Below, in pieces: positions 9,697 through 61,185 of a DNA stretch of 64,000 nt (position 1 is its first letter; each line of letters opens with the position of its first letter). The stretch is taken from UHGV virus genome UHGV-0015805. One strand, 5' to 3'. The translations under genes were made by a program, and so were the position numbers. This stretch comes from a virus. The notes beneath the pieces are model-generated. The model searched no databases, was not told where the DNA came from, and saw only the letters and a program-made list of their open reading frames with translations.

Positions 9697-9725
9697 TTGA
9701 CAGTTTGATGTTTTCGTGATATAAT
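9697..9725 (+). promoter_or_regulatory. consensus promoter (TTGACA-17-TATAAT, TG-extended)
   Basis: ttgacagtttgatgttttcgtgatataat. Confidence 0.6.
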
Positions 9726-9831
9726 ATAAACAGAGGTTAGAATAAGGTTGCAAACTTGTTCTATTTGGGGCAAGGTGCTTACTCCGCCTTGCCCACTCTA
9801 AACAATTTTCTTGAGTAAGGAGAATGTAGAT

Positions 9832-10515
9832 ATGAAAAAGGGATGTCATCCATCGAACTTTATTGATATGACAGGATGGAAAATGTGGGAGCACGGAGTT
9901 ACAGACAGTAGGATAATCGTGATTTGTGAAGCTGCAAAAACAAATAGTAAAAAAGTACGATGGAAATGTATGTGTGCATGTGGCAATCCACGGGTGTTTA
10001 TCGTAGATGGAACTGGTTTGCGATTTGGAAATACATTATCCTGCGGATGCATAAAGAAGGAAAGATGCCATAAAACGCACGGTGAATCAAAAAGCAAATT
10101 ATATAATGTCTGGTGCGCAATGATAAAAAGGTGTAATAACCCACACGACCATGACTATGGGAGATATGGCGGGAGAGGAATAGGCGTTGCCTCTGAATGG
10201 AGGGATTATAAACCATTTCGCGATTGGGCAATTGCGAATGGATATAAAGAAGGACTTGAGCTTGACCGCATAGACAATGACGGAAATTATTGTCACGATA
10301 ATTGTAGATGGGTGACACATCAAGAACAATGTTGTAACAGAAGTTCTAATGTTTGGATTCAATATATGGGAAGAAAATGGTCCGTTGCAGAGTGCTCAAA
10401 ACGAACAGGAATAGCAGAAGAAACTATACGAGCGAGGGTTAAAAATGGATGGACTCCTGAGGAAATTTTCTCAGTGCCATGTAAAACAAAAAGAAAGAAA
10501 GGTAAAGTATTATGA
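9832..10515 (+). CDS. HNH endonuclease with N-terminal zinc-finger DNA-binding module
   Basis: LELDRIDNDGNYCHDNCRWVTHQEQ HNH motif; N-terminal CACGNPRVFIVDGTGLRFGNTLSCGC module, shared with the endonuclease at 55973-57028. Confidence 0.7.
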   Translation: MKKGCHPSNFIDMTGWKMWEHGVTDSRIIVICEAAKTNSKKVRWKCMCACGNPRVFIVDGTGLRFGNTLSCGCIKKERCHKTHGESKSKLYNVWCAMIKRCNNPHDHDYGRYGGRGIGVASEWRDYKPFRDWAIANGYKEGLELDRIDNDGNYCHDNCRWVTHQEQCCNRSSNVWIQYMGRKWSVAECSKRTGIAEETIRARVKNGWTPEEIFSVPCKTKRKKGKVL

Positions 10516-37468: not shown

Positions 37469-40450
37469 TTATCCCCTCTCGTAAGCATATTGAAGTGCAA
37501 GATTTTTCAGCCCGGTTACAAACTCTCTTGCATTTGTTACATTGGGCAATTCAAGGTTGTTGACATTCACAGTGGTGTTGCTGGAATTACCAAACTTAAA
37601 GCCCATTAAGCCCTTGAGCGCAGATACAAAATCACTCGGAGATGTGCTACCCCATGCAAACAAATTCTTAGTAACGCCGCTTGTAAGTATGCCGTCACCA
37701 CGATTAAGAATGCGCATTTCAGGACCGTTCTCTCCGACAAGGCTCATGCCGCCAGTTGCGCCAAGCGTGCCGTTTGCATAGCTCGACCACTTGCCTGTTG
37801 CGGCATCATAGGTCGAATTATCTTCAAGCAATTTGGCCAGCTCAACATTTGCATTATGCAACGCCTCGCGCTCGGCAGAGCTTGTAGATGTTGCCCACGC
37901 CGCGCTATTAGCTTGCATCTTGTCAAGAATGGTCTGTCTGACCTCTGCTTTTCTGCGAGCTTCAATGTCCGCCTTGCTTGCCTCTAAGCCTTTATTGCGA
38001 TTATATTCGTCAAGCTTTGCCTGCGCCGCAGATATTGCATCCGCATCTTGCACATACTGGAATCGACCGTCTTTATATACAAGCTTTTTCTGCTCTCTTG
38101 CCTTAGCCATTTCATCGAGCAGTTTTTCATATTCAATTTGGTCGGACAGGGCATCATTAACTTCTTCAAGCCGCGACAGTTCAGAATCATACTTTTCGTT
38201 GATTTTATCAACGGCGTCCTCGACCGACTTAGTTGATTCTTCGACCAACTCTTGCATGCGCTTCTTTTCATACGCATAAATCTTTTCAGAATATTGCCAA
38301 TATTCTTCTTGATATTTGGACTTGCCCTTAAAGAATTTATCGACCATTTCAGTAAGCTCAGCGTAATACTGCTCTTCTGTAATTTCGTCCATTGCAAGTT
38401 GATGGTCTTTATATGCAAGCCAATCTGTAAATGCTTTTTTGTAGGTGTCTGTGGCGGAAGATGCGGCGCTCGAACTGGAACTATATGTTGCGAGCAGTTG
38501 TTCCAGCCACGCAATTTCATCTTCGATATTTTTTATGTTCTGTTCTGCAGTGGCTACTAATGCGTCCTGTCGGGCTGCTTCAGCTTCGGCTTCTTCAGCT
38601 GTTGACAAAAGCTGTGTTTGCCCCATTAAACTCTGTCTTGTCCTGAATCTTAGTGCCTCTGCTTTTGCGGCTTCGGCGTGCGACAATGCCGTTTTCTGCG
38701 CCTGTAATTCCTCTTGTTTTTGCAATAGAACAAATTGCGTTAACTCCTTGCTTCCGCGCAACGCCGCCTTGCCTGCCGATGTCAACGCGCCCGCTTCGTC
38801 ATAAAGTAGGTCATTAAGCCCAGGCAACGCTTCGTCTAATGCTTCTTGCGTTTCAGATTGCAATCCGCCATAAGTATTATAGTCCTGAACTGCCTTATTT
38901 AATGCATTTTGTGCTTTTGCGAGATTGTCGACATTATCTCGCTGGGCTTTTGTTATTCCTGCATTTTTGCCTGCTTGGGTGTTAAGGTTTGCAACAGTTT
39001 CTCCGAGCGATTGAGCCGCAACATTGGCTCTTTCTAATTTTCCTTCCGCGTTTTCAATCGCCTCGTCATACTGCCTTATCTCTTCAATAGTAGCGCTAAC
39101 TTCTTTTGACATGAAGCTCGGGAATATCCCATATCGAAGAACATTCTCATAAAAGCGAATCAAATCGTCCGTGTCCATTAAAGAAACATCAACATCAAGG
39201 TTTTCGCCAAGCCCCGTTATATCAAATCCGAGCGCGTCTCTGTATCGTTTTAGCCTTTCTTGGAGCTCTTGCATCTCAGCGCGTAGTTTATCGCCTGCAG
39301 ATTCGCGAGATGCTTTTGACTCTATTATTTGCCCATAATAAGCCGTTTGCTTTTCTTGCAACGCCGCTTGAAGCGCCTCTTGCTTCATCGCTTCGATGCG
39401 TTTATAAATTGCACCAGTATCTTCTTTGATTTTACCAGTATGTTCGCCAATGCTGAGATTCAAGTCGGGGTAAATTTTATTAAGTTGGTCTACGGCGCTT
39501 TTATACTTATACGCCTCACTCGTAGACATATTCTCAACCTTGTTAAGGTCTTCAATTACCCCAACCAAATATTTTGCTTGTTCGGCATTCGCCTTAGCAA
39601 TATTTGTGGCATCTGTATAAGTGGCGTTAATTGTTTCTATGGACTTATTTATCTTGTTGATTGTGCCGTACTGCGCATCATAAGCATCTTTAACAAGCCC
39701 TATCATAACCGTTAGCGCCGCCATTGCAATGCCAACGACAGGCACAGACGCCTGCAATGCTTTTACGCCAGTTGTCGCGCCAGCCAAAACAGATGTAAAT
39801 GCTTTTATCGATTTTATTGCGACTGGAATGACTTGCGCAATAATTCCGCCGAGCCCAGTAAAAACGCCACTCAGCAAAACAAATTGTGTTAAAGTTCTGC
39901 CTGCTTCGGTGTTCAATACTTTTAACGCGCCATTAGCCAAATTAAGCAAAGACTTAACCAATTCGCTATCAATGGTTTTGTTTGCAAAATCTTCCCATGT
40001 TGCTTTTAATGCAGTTGTTTTTGCTTCAAGCGAATCAAGGACTTTTGCATTTTCTGCTGCGGCCGAACCCGAAGAATTGTATGCAAGCTCTGTTGCTTTT
40101 TGAACGCCCGAAAAGTTAGAAAGCAATGCAGCAAGATTCTGCGATTGCCTTGCTCCTGCCGCCTGTTGCAAGAAATAAGATTGCTCGTTCTTGCTAAGTG
40201 AATCCCACTTGGGGGCAAGGTCGGACATAACATCGTACAGCGACCTTAACTGCCCTGCCTCGTCTTTGACCGCAATTCCGTGCTTTGTATACCATGCAAG
40301 CAGGTTTTTACCTGTGCTTGATGATTCGTCTACAATTTGGTTAAAGCGACTCTGCACTGTAACAAGTGAGCGTGAAGCAGATGCCGCAGAACGAGTAATT
40401 TCGGTAATGCCAGTTAATACATAATTTATTTGCCAGAGGACGCCAACCCT
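37469..40450 (-). CDS. tape measure protein, 3' exon (frame open upstream of the GTG at 40357 to about 40450)
   Basis: LAWYTKHGIAVKDEAGQLRSLYDVMSDL matches the TP901-family TMP core continuation. Long coiled-coil, 960+ aa. Upstream frame stays open through the end of the intron ORF. Confidence 0.75.
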   Translation of the reverse strand, partial: RVGVLWQINYVLTGITEITRSAASASRSLVTVQSRFNQIVDESSSTGKNLLAWYTKHGIAVKDEAGQLRSLYDVMSDLAPKWDSLSKNEQSYFLQQAAGARQSQNLAALLSNFSGVQKATELAYNSSGSAAAENAKVLDSLEAKTTALKATWEDFANKTIDSELVKSLLNLANGALKVLNTEAGRTLTQFVLLSGVFTGLGGIIAQVIPVAIKSIKAFTSVLAGATTGVKALQASVPVVGIAMAALTVMIGLVKDAYDAQYGTINKINKSIETINATYTDATNIAKANAEQAKYLVGVIEDLNKVENMSTSEAYKYKSAVDQLNKIYPDLNLSIGEHTGKIKEDTGAIYKRIEAMKQEALQAALQEKQTAYYGQIIESKASRESAGDKLRAEMQELQERLKRYRDALGFDITGLGENLDVDVSLMDTDDLIRFYENVLRYGIFPSFMSKEVSATIEEIRQYDEAIENAEGKLERANVAAQSLGETVANLNTQAGKNAGITKAQRDNVDNLAKAQNALNKAVQDYNTYGGLQSETQEALDEALPGLNDLLYDEAGALTSAGKAALRGSKELTQFVLLQKQEELQAQKTALSHAEAAKAEALRFRTRQSLMGQTQLLSTAEEAEAEAARQDALVATAEQNIKNIEDEIAWLEQLLATYSSSSSAASSATDTYKKAFTDWLAYKDHQLAMDEITEEQYYAELTEMVDKFFKGKSKYQEEYWQYSEKIYAYEKKRMQELVEESTKSVEDAVDKINEKYDSELSRLEEVNDALSDQIEYEKLLDEMAKAREQKKLVYKDGRFQYVQDADAISAAQAKLDEYNRNKGLEASKADIEARRKAEVRQTILDKMQANSAAWATSTSSAEREALHNANVELAKLLEDNSTYDAATGKWSSYANGTLGATGGMSLVGENGPEMRILNRGDGILTSGVTKNLFAWGSTSPSDFVSALKGLMGFKFGNSSNTTVNVNNLELPNVTNAREFVTGLKNLALQYAYERG

Positions 40451-41853
40451 CTAAGCGATTCTTGAAAAAATATTTTATAAGAATTGTCCTTATCAAATAA
40501 ATAATAAGGTATTCTTATCAAAGGAATGTTGTTTTCTTTGCAATAAGCATCTTTTATCTTATCATGCCTTTTAGTGCTTTCAAAAGTTTTTTGAGCGCGC
40601 TCAAATGATATGCGATTAAAACAACACGGTTTATAGTGACCTTGTCCGTCTATTTCCACAAGAATGCCACCATCTACGATGTAGAAATCAAACGGTAACG
40701 GCAGTATATCCCTGCATTGATTTAATGAATATTGCCGCACATATTTAATATTAAGTTCTTGTAGAAGCTTTTCAAACATGTCCTCAAACCGCGACATGCT
40801 CTTAGCGCAAACAGAACACCTCGTTTTCCCATTTTGAAACGCCGCTATTGATGTATCAAATCGGTTGCCACATTCGCAAATAAACGAAAGGGATGTCAAT
40901 CTTCCACCTTGATACTCTTTGTCGTTGCAAAATCCAATACACTCTACGTTTGCGCCATGTGTACTTGCCCACCAATTCACATTGTAAATATAGTTCTTTC
41001 TATTTATCCGAACATCAAAACGAGACATTCCTTTGCCAGAATTTATTGCAGCTGCAGAAATAAATCCTCTATATCCTTCGGCGTCCTCGACCTCTACCCT
41101 TTGAGCATACTTTAAATCTCTCGTATCTTCATCAGATATTATCTTATAGCCGTGTGCGGATATCATCTCTCCGTATATTCTTTTTTGTCTTTTTGACGCC
41201 CGAACTTTTGTTGCGCATGACACGCAAACGAAACGATTTCTACAAGATATCTCGTATACTTTTTTACGAAATACATTTCCACAACCGCAACGAAGTTCAA
41301 TTATGGCGCACCCGTTTCGACCAGTTGACCACGAGACAAACTCAGTGGTCGGCGCACATTTTGACAAAAGAACACGCATATTATGCTCGATGTTTGCGTA
41401 ATTATATTTACCCCATATTGTTGGCGACTTACCAGCCTTTAAGTTGGAATAAGACGCATAACACCATATTCCGTCCTTTCTTTCGCAAAGCACATATTCG
41501 TTTGCATTGACATAATCACCAATTATTTTAAGTCCATGAGAGTTAAACAATTTTATAACTTCAGAATATTCTAATTTTTTCAAGAATCCTCCCTCTTTCA
41601 ATGGAGATTAGACCATATCTTTTTTACCTATGTTTCCCCGCGCTTGCGGGTATGCCTACTGAATTAGTAGGGCTTACTGGTCGTTGAACAGTTATCAATT
41701 ACCTATTGATAACTTGCTGCGGATTATCCAATCTCTATATTTGTTACTATACAGCAGTCATTACTTGCTCCACCGCATTATTACTAATACGGTTTAGTAT
41801 ATAGAGCTCTAAGGAACTTCCCGTCAATTTATAGGTTTTTAATTGACCTATTA
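40380..41853 (-). mobile_element. group I intron (with ORF) interrupting the tape measure gene
   Basis: Minus-strand core contains canonical Q element AATCCGCAGC and R element GTTCAACGACCAGTAAGCC. Flanking ORFs are consecutive pieces of one TMP domain. Boundaries approximate. Confidence 0.6.
40426..41601 (-). CDS. intron-encoded homing endonuclease, PD-(D/E)xK Vsr/DUF559-like C-terminal domain with zinc-finger N-terminus
   Basis: C-terminal FDFYIVDGGILVEIDGQGHY...KDAYCKENNIPLIRIPYY; several CxxC pairs; TTG start after AGGGAGG. Confidence 0.55.
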   Translation of the reverse strand: MKEGGFLKKLEYSEVIKLFNSHGLKIIGDYVNANEYVLCERKDGIWCYASYSNLKAGKSPTIWGKYNYANIEHNMRVLLSKCAPTTEFVSWSTGRNGCAIIELRCGCGNVFRKKVYEISCRNRFVCVSCATKVRASKRQKRIYGEMISAHGYKIISDEDTRDLKYAQRVEVEDAEGYRGFISAAAINSGKGMSRFDVRINRKNYIYNVNWWASTHGANVECIGFCNDKEYQGGRLTSLSFICECGNRFDTSIAAFQNGKTRCSVCAKSMSRFEDMFEKLLQELNIKYVRQYSLNQCRDILPLPFDFYIVDGGILVEIDGQGHYKPCCFNRISFERAQKTFESTKRHDKIKDAYCKENNIPLIRIPYYLFDKDNSYKIFFQESLRGLASSGK

Positions 41854-42168
41854 ACCTAAGCCAATGCTCTCTTCCATCGTATTTCCGCCAACAGACATTG
41901 CGGCAGACATATTTCCGAGGTTTCGAGCTAAATCTGCTGAAGAAACCGCCATATGGTTGCTGACATTATTGACGCTATCAATGATATGAGAAGATTCATC
42001 AGCAGCAATATTAAATGCCTTCATCTGGGCAATGATAAACTCAGATGCTTCACCCGCCGAAAGTTGCTCATCGGCGATATTTTGGTACATAGCGGCAACT
42101 TTTGCTAATTCCGCAGCATCGGTTTCATTGAACCCGGCTTTCGCAAATTCGGTTGCGCTTTCCACCAT
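41851..42168 (-). CDS. tape measure protein, middle exon (TP901-family core segment)
   Basis: ELAKVAAMYQN...SSADLARNLGNMSAAMSVGGNTMEESIGLG matches the TMP core; closed upstream by an in-frame TAA three codons before the ATG. Confidence 0.6.
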   Translation of the reverse strand: MVESATEFAKAGFNETDAAELAKVAAMYQNIADEQLSAGEASEFIIAQMKAFNIAADESSHIIDSVNNVSNHMAVSSADLARNLGNMSAAMSVGGNTMEESIGLG

Positions 42169-42181
42169 TTGGGACTTTTAT

Positions 42182-42415
42182 TCAATCTTTCTTGGAGTAA
42201 TCAATAAATCCCCAATCGTTATGCTCTTTTTCTTCTCTTCTGTACCGCTCGGACACCCGCCTATCTTCTTCTTCCCATTTTCTGTATTGTTCGGGATTAT
42301 TCTTCTTGGCAGCATCCTTATCAAAAGGAATTCCAAAAACAACATGCCTGAAGAAGCAAGCAACGCCATAGCAGACACAATAAAGCATCATCAAAGGAAC
42401 CGCAATTAACAACAT
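42182..42415 (-). CDS. small single-pass membrane protein encoded inside intron B
   Basis: MLLIAVPLMMLYCVCYGVACFF followed by a highly charged tail; own promoter and RBS AAGGTGGG. Confidence 0.45.
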   Translation of the reverse strand: MLLIAVPLMMLYCVCYGVACFFRHVVFGIPFDKDAAKKNNPEQYRKWEEEDRRVSERYRREEKEHNDWGFIDYSKKD

Positions 42416-42444
42416 AATCAAGCCCACCTTTCTTTGTTGATGCC

Positions 42445-42473
42445 ATTATAACACATAACTTTTAGATTGTCAA
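42445..42473 (-). promoter_or_regulatory. consensus promoter (TTGACA-17-TATAAT) on the minus strand inside intron B
   Basis: Minus-sense ttgacaatctaaaagttatgtgttataat. Confidence 0.5.
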
Positions 42474-42725
42474 TACCTTTTTCGAAATATTCTGGACTAT
42501 TTCTTCACCCTATTTAATTTGGAGGGGTCGAACTTATAAAGTCTCTTGACACATCCCTGTTCGGGACTTCGCGCCCAATCTACCATTGTTTGTCCCGAAC
42601 AATATACAATATTCGTGACAAATTGCACTTAGGTCTTTCGACCATATGCTATCCCGCTTATTTTTAACAGTTTCCCACATTCACACTTGGGCTTATTTCA
42701 TCCCTATGTTGTAGTTAAACAGGCT

Positions 42726-43193
42726 TTAGGTTTTACTGGGTTTTGAACAATTCTCTGTGCTGGTTTGCCATCCCATCACACGGGCTCCCGTCCATAGTTT
42801 ACCCGTCTTCGCAACTTCTGCTCCCATGTCGGTTAGCTTGCTCACATATTCGTCCATTGATTCGCCGGACAAATCTGTGACCTTTGCTAATTCGACCTGC
42901 GCGGCATTCATGGTGTAGACTTCAGAGACCATAGACTTAATAATATCTATGCTCTTCTCCATAATCATGTTCGCCGCTTGATATGTTAATTCAAAATTCT
43001 TCGCGCTGGACGAGGCTTCGTTCATGTTCTTCGACAGATTGCTTATTCCGTCAGATGCTTCCTTAGCCCCTTTTGCTTTGATATTGATATTGACATTTTT
43101 TGCCGCGTCATTCAATTTCTTTTGAATTTCGCTTGTACTTGTCTTTATCTCAATACCTACGCCAATATTCCAGCTCGTGTTTTTATTCGCCAT
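42726..43193 (-). CDS. tape measure protein, 5' exon (N-terminal segment); C-terminal ~20 codons probably intron-derived
   Basis: N-terminal TMP-like VELAKVTDLSGESMDEYVSKLTDMGAEVAKTGK; the ORF stop coincides with the conserved intron 5' motif cctaaagcct. Confidence 0.55.
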   Translation of the reverse strand: MANKNTSWNIGVGIEIKTSTSEIQKKLNDAAKNVNINIKAKGAKEASDGISNLSKNMNEASSSAKNFELTYQAANMIMEKSIDIIKSMVSEVYTMNAAQVELAKVTDLSGESMDEYVSKLTDMGAEVAKTGKLWTGARVMGWQTSTENCSKPSKT

Positions 43194-51328: not shown

Positions 51329-52775
51329 CCCCTTATGCAGTCTTGTTTCCGTGCGAAACAGACCTCTCGTATTTTCATACGATGTTCAGACTATATCTTC
51401 TTCTTATATATCAATTCTTAAATAATGATGCTCAGTATCGACCAAATACTGCACCCCTTGTTTAATTTGTTCTTTTGTGGGGACATTTCCCTTGCTCAAA
51501 AACCTCAAGACTTTTATCCCTTTGCGCATAGAATAAAAGTCTCTGCGTTTGTCTTGTTCTTTTTTGTTTTTGTGCCAAAAATACCCATCAAATTCAACAT
51601 CAATTTTAACATCACCAATAACAAGTAGACAATCATAAATCACTTTATCAAACGGATAAGATGGGAAGCAATTTTCTTCTCCATACATTTCAATCAAAAG
51701 AGCCACCATTTCTTTCTCTGCTTTAGAGCTTGGGATGGTCCCATTGTTAATCATTGTCGCCCAGGATTTATGTCGCACCTCTGGACTCGATTGGGAACTT
51801 TCACCGCCATATCTCTCAACGCAAGTTTTCTTGGCTTTTTTAATTACCCCATCTGATTTAGCAGGGTTGTCTACTCCATATTTCTCAAGACATGTTTTCT
51901 TAATTTTGTTCTGAATTTCTGGCGACTGCGAAACATTATTAACGCCATACTTTTTTATAATGGTATTTTTTGCCTTTTCTTTGAATTGTTGAACATGAAA
52001 CGGCGCAACAGCCCCATATCTTTCGCGCATAGTACGACTTGCTTTTTCTTTAACCTCTTTGTTTCCAAGCGAACACTCGATCCCATATTTTTTAATGTTT
52101 GTCCGTTTTATTTTTTCGGCAAATCTCGGAGACTGAATCGCTGCTACAACGCCATATTTAGTTTTCATAGTTTCACGCATTTTAATATTGCCACAGTCTT
52201 TACAAGCAGATTTATTGGATTCTTTTATGGAGCTATAATAGTTGTCTATAGTCTTTGTGAAAATTTTATGGCAATAGTCACATTCTACTTGTATTTTCTC
52301 TTTTGAACCATGGGTAACAAGTTCTGCTGGAACCTCTATCCAATCTTTACAACTCGTAAATGTATATCCAATAGACTCATAATATTTACGATTATTTGGA
52401 TTCCATTTAATTTTTATGTATTGCCCTGGTACAATCATAATATCACTCAATTCTTGGTCTGTTTTTGATATATAAGAGTTACATTTTTCTTCCCGCATTA
52501 GCTTCGGGTTTTACTCCCCCTCAAGGGGATAGTCGTTGGGGGTTTCTCATATGCATTTGTCACATTTTATAGTGCATCAATACACTTAGAGCTTTCCCTG
52601 CGAAAGACCCATTTACATTCACTTAGGATTTAACCATATGAATATCCTCTAACTTTTTTCTGTTTTCACAGCCATTCAGCTTGCCTTTTCAAGCTACTGT
52701 TTAGGCATAGAGGCTTTAGGGATTCAACGCATTTAACGTAAAGTCTTTACATTTTGCAATATAAAGAGGGCTTCA
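51329..52775 (-). mobile_element. group I intron-like element with endonuclease ORF upstream of (or splitting) the capsid gene
   Basis: Minus-sense CCCAACGACTATCCCCTTGAGGGGGAGTAA (R element plus P8-like hairpin); cctaaagcct shared with intron B. Boundaries approximate. Confidence 0.45.
51404..52498 (-). CDS. homing endonuclease, Vsr/DUF559-like PD-(D/E)xK C-terminal domain with tandem KYGV repeats
   Basis: IDVEFDGYFWHKNKKEQDKRRDFYSMRKGIKVLRF; repeated KYG..N.SQSPE..K.K.T motifs. Confidence 0.55.
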   Translation of the reverse strand: MREEKCNSYISKTDQELSDIMIVPGQYIKIKWNPNNRKYYESIGYTFTSCKDWIEVPAELVTHGSKEKIQVECDYCHKIFTKTIDNYYSSIKESNKSACKDCGNIKMRETMKTKYGVVAAIQSPRFAEKIKRTNIKKYGIECSLGNKEVKEKASRTMRERYGAVAPFHVQQFKEKAKNTIIKKYGVNNVSQSPEIQNKIKKTCLEKYGVDNPAKSDGVIKKAKKTCVERYGGESSQSSPEVRHKSWATMINNGTIPSSKAEKEMVALLIEMYGEENCFPSYPFDKVIYDCLLVIGDVKIDVEFDGYFWHKNKKEQDKRRDFYSMRKGIKVLRFLSKGNVPTKEQIKQGVQYLVDTEHHYLRIDI

Positions 52776-55473: not shown

Positions 55474-55989
55474 TTAGTTGGACTCCTTGAGAATCCAGAA
55501 GTCAGGAACATCGTGGTCATAAGCGCCGATTCTTTCATCGCCATAAATGACCATCTTATCATTGAGCAAAATTACCTGCTCGACGATTTCATTTACATCC
55601 TCCAGCATATCCAGCAAATCGGCATAAACATGGATATCGTTGTTATCAAGCGCAATTTTGCATGCGCCCATAAACATTATCTGGAAATCAATGACGCGTC
55701 GTTCAACCTCAGCAATAATGTCGCTGGCTCTGTCATAATCCTCAGCGCCACTTGGCGTCTCGCCATAGATGACGGCGATATTATAGCGCTCAAGGCATCT
55801 CTCTGCGATTTTATCTGCCAGCGCTAACGGCCAATGGGCAATCCCGTGATGGATTAAATTTGCAGACTGATTGCAAGCAAATTTTACACCTAAGACCGAA
55901 ACGCACCTATCTGTAACTCTGTTGAGAACAAAGCACTGTTTGATTAACTCCATAAGAGCGGACTGTGTGTTATTAGATACAATCGTCAT
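55474..55989 (-). CDS. hypothetical protein (cargo of the endonuclease cassette)
   Basis: 171-aa ORF. Confidence 0.4.
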   Translation of the reverse strand: MTIVSNNTQSALMELIKQCFVLNRVTDRCVSVLGVKFACNQSANLIHHGIAHWPLALADKIAERCLERYNIAVIYGETPSGAEDYDRASDIIAEVERRVIDFQIMFMGACKIALDNNDIHVYADLLDMLEDVNEIVEQVILLNDKMVIYGDERIGAYDHDVPDFWILKESN

Positions 55990-57028
55990 TGGAATTATCT
56001 CCTAATATATTATTTATTTTTGCCTTAAAAGAACCATCCATAATTTCAACATAGCTCAACGCAAGATATTTATAGCCACAAGATTTGGCATATTCCATTT
56101 TATAGTTATCACGCCATTGCAAATCTTTTAGCCATTCGCCTTGCGTCTTGTCTCCAAGCCAACACTTTGGAGCACATGGCAAATAATGCTGTATGCCATG
56201 CACCTCTATAATAATATTGTGCCCTACTATTTCATTATCAAACGGCATTCTACTGCCCGTATTCGGATTTATTGGTACAATAGCGCAAGCGTACTCATGC
56301 AATGTCTGCAACCCAAGACACTTATTGATATAGTGTTTAACGGCAAGCTCTATGCTTGAATCGGTCATCTCGCCCAGGCAATCAGGGCACATTAAATCAT
56401 AAACCCTTGAATATAAAGCAAGTGCACTTGTCTTATATTCCTTTCCGCACTTAGGACATATAATATAAACGTCCCTATGGCTTTTTGCAGTAAGCTCATT
56501 CGGAGCGCGGTCGTTTTTGTCACTCCAAATATTAGAAAGTTCTACGTCTGGATATTTAGATATCAACGAATCCATTAAGCTACCATTTTCTCTTATTGAA
56601 TTTAACGACCTTTTGTACGCAACATATTCCTTTATAGATTTGAACCCATGCTTCTTACACTCATTACACGCCGTTATCTTGCCAGATGTCAAATCATATA
56701 CAGCCACTTCAATGGTGTTCCCACATTTGCATCTACACTTCCATAAAAATCCATTCTTAGTAACTATATATGTGTTCTCGATTGCGACTAATGTCCCAAA
56801 TGTTCTGCCTTGCAAATTGGCCGTTCGTCTTATGGATGAATCTTTATCTCTAATGCACCCACAGCTAAGAGATGCTCCGCTTTTAAGGTGTGTGCCCATA
56901 ACAGATTTAATATTGCCACACGAACATCTACATATCCATCTAATATGCCCAGCAGAGTTCTCTTCGTCCTTATGCAATACTTGCCATTCTCCAAATTCCA
57001 GCCCAGTCAAATCTTTGAATTTCCCCAT
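55973..57028 (-). CDS. free-standing homing endonuclease (Vsr/DUF559-like nuclease C-terminus; N-terminal zinc-finger module shared with the early HNH protein)
   Basis: IIIEVHGIQHY...WRD (PD-(D/E)xK-like); CSCGNIKSVMGTHLKSGASLSCGC and CKCGNTIEVAVYDLTSGKITACNEC; RBS GGAGG. Confidence 0.55.
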   Translation of the reverse strand: MGKFKDLTGLEFGEWQVLHKDEENSAGHIRWICRCSCGNIKSVMGTHLKSGASLSCGCIRDKDSSIRRTANLQGRTFGTLVAIENTYIVTKNGFLWKCRCKCGNTIEVAVYDLTSGKITACNECKKHGFKSIKEYVAYKRSLNSIRENGSLMDSLISKYPDVELSNIWSDKNDRAPNELTAKSHRDVYIICPKCGKEYKTSALALYSRVYDLMCPDCLGEMTDSSIELAVKHYINKCLGLQTLHEYACAIVPINPNTGSRMPFDNEIVGHNIIIEVHGIQHYLPCAPKCWLGDKTQGEWLKDLQWRDNYKMEYAKSCGYKYLALSYVEIMDGSFKAKINNILGDNSNDDCI

Positions 57029-59967: not shown

Positions 59968-61185
59968 TTTTTTAAACTATTTTTTTTGAGGTTAATTATA
60001 TATATTGCCAGTGAAATCCATATGCGATCCGTTGTTGCCCGCGACAACACTTGGAAATTGAGGACGGGTCCTTGTTCAAGGCACGACCCGCCTCAGCCAC
60101 GGATTCATAAGTAACTCCCGTTTCGACACACATCAGCTTCTTCCCACCAATGTTAAGATGTGCAATCCGCGATTGATCTCGCATCTCCTCTGTCCAAATT
60201 CGATTTTTATTATATCTTCTAAGATGCTCTTTTACGCTTTCTGGACATTTGTGCCCTACTCCGTTCCTCTTACCTTTCATCCTCTCCGACCTACGACGGC
60301 ATATTTCTTCCGAAAGCTTCCATGTTTTGCCTTTTACATTTTGGTTGCCCATTATACTTTGGCTTATTTTATTTCTTGTTTCTTCGGAATGTTTTTTGCC
60401 GAACATGTGATTATCTTTCCCGCATTTTATTTGTTCCGGGTGTTCTTTAAAACGTTTTTTAGCTATTTCGCTCATTCTCTTCTTGTCTTCTTCTCTGTGA
60501 CGATATCCTTTTGTGCTTTCTGCTATCGGACATATATTGTATCCGACATCTCTGTCGGCACTATCATAAAAATCTATCCAATACTGCTCGCGTTGTGTTA
60601 AATTTTCGTGCGATACGCCTCTTTCCAACACTTCAACACTAAAGTTATCAAATCCATACTTTTTAATAGCCATGCAGATACGCCTATTTGTATCTTCGCG
60701 TAAGTATTGTTTCATACGAGTATAAAAATCCACCGTCTGCCCGACATAAACCTTCCCGTTTATTAGGTTTCGCCATAAATAAATGCAACTAAAAGAAAAT
60801 TTCTTTTTATCATTAACCTCAAAAATATTCATGCTATAAAATCCTTCCTGCAATAAAGATTATTATTCAAGAACAAATGGGGTAATTTGTTCGTTTGCAG
60901 ACGAACAAAAACAATTTGCAACTTGCTGTCCCCCATTGTTCTTTTAAGCACAGGTCGCTACTCCTCGTTTCTCTCGTTTTTTTGAGAGACTGCATGTTTC
61001 CATGCAGATAAGACTATATCTTCACTTTGCTTTTATGCAAAGGCATACCACTTCCACAACCAATCGCTTGTTGTGTACTCCCTTACGGGATAGTCGTTGA
61101 ACGTTCCTCTATTCAAAGCTTCGCTGCTGATTGCCCAATTTTTATCATTTTCTCGCATATCACACTTAGCCTTATTTCATGCTTA
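59968..61185 (-). mobile_element. group I intron with GIY-YIG endonuclease ORF splitting the terminase large subunit gene
   Basis: Minus-sense AATCAGCAGCGAAGC (Q-like) and GTTCAACGACTATCCCGTAAGGGAGTAC (R element plus GNRA hairpin). ATPase and nuclease domains lie in separate ORFs on either side. Boundaries approximate. Confidence 0.6.
59996..60832 (-). CDS. GIY-YIG homing endonuclease (I-TevI-like, NUMOD repeats)
   Basis: IYLWRNLINGKVYVGQT..F..R...Y GIY-YIG motif; repeated H..E.R.KIS motifs; C-terminal DNA-binding module. Confidence 0.8.
   Translation of the reverse strand: MNIFEVNDKKKFSFSCIYLWRNLINGKVYVGQTVDFYTRMKQYLREDTNRRICMAIKKYGFDNFSVEVLERGVSHENLTQREQYWIDFYDSADRDVGYNICPIAESTKGYRHREEDKKRMSEIAKKRFKEHPEQIKCGKDNHMFGKKHSEETRNKISQSIMGNQNVKGKTWKLSEEICRRRSERMKGKRNGVGHKCPESVKEHLRRYNKNRIWTEEMRDQSRIAHLNIGGKKLMCVETGVTYESVAEAGRALNKDPSSISKCCRGQQRIAYGFHWQYI

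What the first reader, a model, noticed from the sequence alone, without database searches (positions are those of the whole stretch)
42169..42728. Intron-like element carrying its own consensus promoter and a small membrane protein instead of a homing endonuclease
Inside the upstream TMP insertion there is a perfect minus-strand TTGACA-17-TATAAT promoter (42445-42473) and an RBS driving a ~77-aa protein. That protein has one TM helix (LLIAVPLMMLYCVCYGVACFF) and a highly charged tail. The combination looks like a promoter-borne, moron-like gene, possibly for superinfection exclusion, lysis timing or abortive infection, hitchhiking in an intron within a late structural operon.
Basis: inference. 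Interest (0 to 1): 0.55.

Follow-up and report, generated by a model that had tools for sequence, protein, structure and literature searches.

The report
Intron carrying a promoter-driven membrane protein
A self-splicing intron inside a phage tail gene carries, in the place where such introns normally hold a DNA-cutting enzyme, a small membrane-protein gene with its own strong promoter, and this arrangement is conserved across a whole lineage of gut phages, so introns can ferry useful accessory genes.

Summary
The tape-measure gene (minus strand) is split by a 626-nt group I-type intron (42800..42175). It has a U.G 5' splice site, a terminal G, P1/P10 pairings that covary with the exons, and 24 compensatory base pairs. 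Rfam's group I model does not reach threshold. Directly after hairpin P9 lie a perfect TTGACA-17-TGnTATAAT promoter (42473..42445), a ribosome-binding site and a 77-aa ORF (42415..42182) that stops 7 nt before the 3' splice site. There is no endonuclease. At least 11 diverged relatives (core 74-90% identical) sit at the same tape-measure site. All keep the promoter (hexamers, spacing and TG conserved; spacer free) and a small protein with an N-terminal membrane helix and a charged tail. These proteins are only 9-27% identical between lineages, yet dN/dS is 0.02-0.15 within them. The promoter matches the three that serve the phage's replication genes, so host-polymerase, early or prophage expression is inferred. 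Homologues of the protein sit free-standing and under purifying selection at two unrelated bacterial chromosomal loci. The function is untested. The closest analogue is the HK97 gp15 moron, a membrane superinfection-exclusion protein. I rate it a new variant of a known kind.

The parts
42801..43193 (-). Tape-measure protein exon 1 (131 codons, ends ...AKTG).
   Evidence: ORF list. The spliced product aligns without a gap across the junction with the uninterrupted tape-measure protein of L003.
42175..42800 (-). Intron A, group I-type, 626 nt, no endonuclease.
   Evidence: P1 ACGGGU (42806..42801) pairs with GCCCGU (42785..42780), with U.G at the splice site in 11/11 sequences. P10 GGGA (42789..42786) pairs with UCCC (42174..42171). 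The last base is G at 42175. In all, 68 pairs are 97.3% paired and 24 are compensatory. Rfam gives only 15.6 bits.
42472..42491 (-). P9 hairpin (loop CGAAAA; GAAA in the relatives). Its 3' strand abuts and overlaps the -35 hexamer.
   Evidence: Read from the sequence and from the alignment of relatives.
42445..42473 (-). Sigma-A-type promoter: TTGACA, 17-nt spacer, TG at 42453..42452, TATAAT.
   Evidence: Hexamers, spacing and TG are conserved in the diverged lineages (TG absent in L363) while the spacer varies.
42423..42430 (-). Ribosome-binding site AAGGTGGG.
   Evidence: Equivalent AAAGGAG sites occur in the relatives.
42182..42415 (-). 77-aa bitopic membrane protein gene. The stop codon lies 7 nt before the 3' splice site.
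   Evidence: dN/dS is 0.02-0.15. Membrane helix and charged tail. AlphaFold2 predicts helices 2-25, 33-39 and 41-66.
41859..42174 (-). Tape-measure exon 2 (begins SQMVESATEF).
   Evidence: Pfam PhageMin_Tail, 7.4e-11. tblastn with the uninterrupted L363 tape-measure protein.
40420..41858 (-). Intron B, a classical group I intron with a 391-aa homing endonuclease ORF (41601..40426) in the same 3'-terminal position.
   Evidence: Rfam RF00028 at 52.1 bits. PHROG HNH/homing endonuclease, 6.9e-43. Boundaries.
37469..40419 (-). Tape-measure exon 3.

Best explanation
An endonuclease-less, self-splicing group I-type intron in the tape-measure gene acts as a silent carrier for an autonomous accessory gene. 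Host sigma-A RNA polymerase starts at the promoter just 3' of P9. It transcribes a small N-out/C-in membrane protein independently of the late tail operon, early in infection and possibly from a prophage. Late pre-mRNA splices the whole cassette out. The anatomy, the conservation and the selection are shown. The expression timing is inferred. The function is inferred by analogy: a gp15/Imm-like envelope protein that excludes competing phages. I put the exclusion function alone at about 0.3. The intron probably persists through selection on its cargo and through co-conversion with neighbouring endonuclease-bearing introns.
For: Intron: frame restoration, P1/P10 covariation, and 24 compensatory pairs against 2-5 in the slid controls. 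Cassette: the same order of P9, promoter, RBS, small membrane-protein ORF and 3' splice site occurs in at least 11 lineages. Coding: dN/dS is 0.02-0.15. Promoter class: identical to the three perfect promoters of the replication module, and the only one in the late module. Stand-alone value: chromosomal copies sit at two unrelated loci, with dN/dS 0.16 and GC below that of the flanks. Analogy: the HK97 gp15 moron is a small inner-membrane exclusion protein encoded next to the tape-measure gene and has chromosomal homologues (PMC3594210).
Against: There are no transcript, splicing or phenotype data. Rfam's group I model is not met and P3 is ambiguous. No terminator follows the ORF. The protein matches no known exclusion or defence family. 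The phage's lifestyle is unknown. The chromosomal contexts are not defence islands.
Confidence: 0.5

Rival explanations
1. The protein is an early host-takeover or timing factor, for example a cell-division inhibitor like SPO1 gp56 or a lysis-timing regulator, and not an exclusion protein.
For: It is small and membrane-bound, and its promoter is of the replication-module (presumed early) class. One chromosomal copy lies between recA and recX, 33 nt after the recA stop codon, which suggests SOS-linked expression. The comparison with gp56 and with SOS division inhibitors rests on my own knowledge.
Against: The predicted C-in topology differs from YneA and SosA. There is no match to Pfam holin families. 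Stable chromosomal retention argues against strong toxicity.
Confidence: 0.2
2. The promoter mainly drives the downstream tape-measure exons. The small ORF would then act as a leader, and ribosomes would re-initiate at the conserved ATG 14 nt after its stop, producing a tape-measure protein truncated at the N-terminus.
For: No terminator follows the ORF. Every lineage has ATG as the third codon of exon 2.
Against: The ORF is under protein-level purifying selection, and homologues persist alone in bacterial chromosomes. No RBS precedes the exon ATG.
Confidence: 0.07
3. The protein is a type I toxin-like addiction peptide that stabilises the intron or prophage.
For: Its architecture, a short hydrophobic peptide with a charged tail, resembles SPbeta BsrG and YonT (own knowledge).
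Against: No convergent promoter for an antisense RNA was found on the plus strand at 41900..42300. Chromosomal copies sit in operons with no partner gene.
Confidence: 0.05
4. The promoter and ORF are a chance or decaying remnant with no function.
For: None beyond the small size of the ORF.
Confidence: 0.03

Closest known systems
Phage group I introns with endonuclease ORFs, such as intron B here and the T4 td intron with I-TevI
   Same: A ribozyme core with an ORF looped out at the 3' end, inside a phage gene. Intron B's ORF stops 6 nt before its 3' splice site. The T4 intron ORFs have their own promoters (own knowledge).
   Different: The cargo is a membrane protein and not a nuclease, so the intron has no mobility function of its own.
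HK97 gp15 moron (PMC3594210)
   Same: A small membrane protein with its own promoter, in the tail operon at the tape-measure gene, with bacterial chromosomal homologues.
   Different: There is no sequence similarity. This cassette sits inside an intron within the gene. It has no terminator, and its function is untested.
IStron (group I intron plus IS605-family element; PMC3984707)
   Same: Non-homing cargo embedded at the 3' end of a group I intron.
   Different: The IStron cargo is a transposase, which still serves mobility. Here the cargo has no recognisable mobility function.
ORF-less introns mobilised in trans (collaborative homing; PMC3984707, PMC2790892)
   Same: The intron has no endonuclease, and in 4 lineages an endonuclease-bearing intron lies about 20-24 nt away.
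   Different: Trans-mobilisation has not been shown here.

Membership tests
Group I intron | Removing it restores a reading frame collinear with uninterrupted homologues. | tested here: met
Group I intron | A U.G pair at the 5' splice site in P1, a terminal G, and P10. | tested here: met
   U.G in 11/11 sequences and P1 compensatory (CG 6, UA 3, GC 2). The last base is G in all lineages. P10 covaries.
Group I intron | A conserved P3-P9 core with the P3/P7 pseudoknot. | tested here: inconclusive
   P2, P4-P6, P8 and P9 are supported. P7 is invariant. The register of P3 differs between clades.
Group I intron | Rfam RF00028 gathering score of 50 bits. | tested here: not met
   15.6 bits. No relative at this site reaches the threshold.
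Group I intron | Self-splicing with guanosine. | not testable with these tools
   Needs an in vitro transcript or RT-PCR.
Moron | Its own promoter. | tested here: met
Moron | Its own terminator and a GC content unlike the surrounding genes. | tested here: not met
   No terminator after the ORF. ORF GC is 0.40 against 0.424 for the window.
Moron | Expressed from a repressed prophage. | not testable with these tools
   The phage's lifestyle is unknown.
Known exclusion, defence or holin families | Sequence match. | tested here: not met
   Pfam, PHROGs, PADLOC and NCBIfam give nothing significant.
Type I toxin-antitoxin | A convergent antisense RNA promoter. | tested here: not met

The most novel reading that the evidence does not exclude
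This is a lineage of group I introns that has exchanged its homing endonuclease for a beneficial gene, and it persists through selection on that cargo and not through homing. The cargo would be an exclusion protein physically welded to the tape-measure allele that it must spare, so that weapon and resistant target are inherited as one unit.
Probability: 0.15. Interest if true: 0.8.

Novelty: new variant of a known kind. Interest (0 to 1): 0.62.

Why it matters
Bacterial and phage group I introns are described as either lacking an ORF or encoding mobility enzymes (PMC3984707). A conserved, promoter-equipped, non-nuclease cargo would show two things. First, introns can act as safe harbours for accessory genes inside essential late genes. 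Second, cargo benefit is one way an intron can survive without homing. The finding also defines a small, previously unnamed protein family: 13 clusters among 1.84 billion proteins. This family is shared between gut phages and bacterial chromosomes and can be tested directly.

Tried and rejected
Rfam gave no group I call for intron A. Pfam, PHROGs, PADLOC and NCBIfam found no family for the protein. The annotated phage collection held only one related intron core, in an unannotated record. The S-element pattern AGGGTGAARAAATAGTC was too general, so the single genome-contig scan was largely spent on unrelated introns. Seven literature searches found no prior description. I did not run a fold search, because a three-helix 77-aa model with pLDDT 71.6 would give meaningless matches. 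I rejected the idea that the chromosomal LysM-GH18 neighbour implies a holin-like export role, because the second chromosomal locus (recA-recX) is unrelated.

Full report
Observation. On the minus strand, a tail module encodes a tape-measure protein in three pieces. The exact extended promoter pattern occurs four times in the window, and at up to 2 mismatches it is strongly over-represented (8 matches against 1.19 expected). The other three exact copies (4743, 9697, 12236, plus strand) lie in the replication module, which holds the DNA polymerase, Sak4, DnaB and primase genes. The intron copy is the only one inside the roughly 43-kb late module.

Intron. The boundaries are 42800..42175. Exon 1 ends ACGGGU, which pairs with GCCCGU. 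GGGA, just 5' of that guide sequence, pairs with the first bases of exon 2, UCCC. The intron ends in G. Relatives carry compensating changes: CCGGU/GCCGG, CUGGU/GCCAG and GCGGU/GCCGC for P1, and CAGA/UCUG and CUGA/UCAG for P10. An 11-sequence alignment gives 68 pairs that are 97.3% paired, against 23-39% when the partners are slid. Twenty-four pairs are compensatory, against 2-5 in the slid controls. The spliced protein aligns without a gap with uninterrupted tape-measure homologues. Rfam's model does not reach threshold (15.6 bits) and P3 is ambiguous. I therefore call the element group I-type on anatomy, not on a model score. More distant relatives of the core (72% identical) sit at other tape-measure sites and carry ordinary endonucleases. 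So does intron B here (41858..40420), whose endonuclease ORF occupies the same 3'-terminal position.

Cassette conservation. Pattern scans and protein look-ups recovered at least 11 distinct lineages at the same tape-measure site. Each has the same order: P9 with a GAAA-type loop, then TTGAC[AT] or TTGAT[AT], then a 17-nt (once 18-nt) unconserved spacer. Next come TGn (absent in L363), a TAnnnT hexamer, a good RBS, a 57-82-aa ORF and a stop codon up to about 35 nt before the 3' splice site. The proteins are only 9-27% identical between lineages. All start with a membrane helix at residue 1-2 and have tails that are 33-56% charged. Most share a C-terminal aromatic-Gly-x-[IF]-[DE] motif or an [FY][IV]D[YF]S motif. 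Within lineages dN/dS is 0.02-0.15. The family is tiny, 13 clusters in 1.84 billion representative proteins, and has no name.

Chromosomal copies. Members of one subfamily lie free-standing in bacterial chromosomes. One locus is downstream of an SH3_3 lipoprotein gene near nrdR. The other lies between recA and recX. DNA similarity to the phage copy (about 81%) is confined to the ORF. The gene's GC content is 0.43-0.48 against 0.60-0.64 in the flanks. Orthologues at one locus differ with dS 0.64 and dN/dS 0.16. So the gene is kept by bacteria on its own. Its composition suggests acquisition from a source of lower GC content, such as these phages.

Mechanism. The shown parts are the anatomy, the conservation and the selection. 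The inferred parts are transcription by host polymerase with replication-gene timing, splicing that removes the cassette from late mRNA, and a cytoplasmic tail (from the positive-inside rule). The function rests on analogy only. The HK97 gp15 moron is a small inner-membrane exclusion protein that is encoded beside the tape-measure gene and has chromosomal homologues. The rival explanations are listed in their own section. No published description of non-nuclease cargo in phage group I introns was found. The 2014 review divides bacterial introns into ORF-less and endonuclease-bearing, with the IStron as the only composite.

Verdict. This is a real, conserved feature. It is a new variant of a known kind: a group I intron plus a moron-like gene. 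I score interest at 0.62.

Noticed in passing
window 37469..43193; L001, L002, L005, L104, L198, L340: The tape-measure gene is an intron hotspot with variable occupancy. Extra introns occur about 20-24 nt into exon 2 (L002, L005, L104, L340), further into exon 2 (L001), and in exon 1 (L198/L254).
   Followed up: partly
L355-L362 and L364-L365: Free-standing chromosomal homologues of the intron cargo sit at two unrelated bacterial loci. Their GC content is lower than that of the flanks, and they are under purifying selection.
   Followed up: partly
window 42160..42236: The last 55 nt of the ORF, together with the 3' splice site and the first 11 nt of exon 2, are almost invariant among six relatives, even at synonymous sites. 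The rest of the ORF varies at about 15% of columns. This suggests an overlapping RNA or homing-site constraint. It is unexplained.
   Followed up: no
window 42593..42621: A 29-nt hairpin insertion in the intron core is absent from the nearest relatives. It is present in similar form in L335, L308 and L340.
   Followed up: no
P0042 (758-nt metagenome contig): A chimeric 117-aa protein joins an endonuclease-like zinc-finger N-terminus to the C-terminal tail of the small membrane protein. This hints at recombination between the two kinds of cargo.
   Followed up: no
window 42166..42168: An in-frame ATG, the third codon of exon 2, is conserved in all intron-bearing lineages 14-35 nt after the small ORF's stop. 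Re-initiation at this codon is possible.
   Followed up: no
window 9811..10515: A free-standing HNH endonuclease gene lies in the replication module, directly behind one of the perfect promoters (9697..9725). Several further ORFs in the late module (51404..52498, 55973..57028, 59996..60853) look endonuclease-like by eye only.
   Followed up: partly
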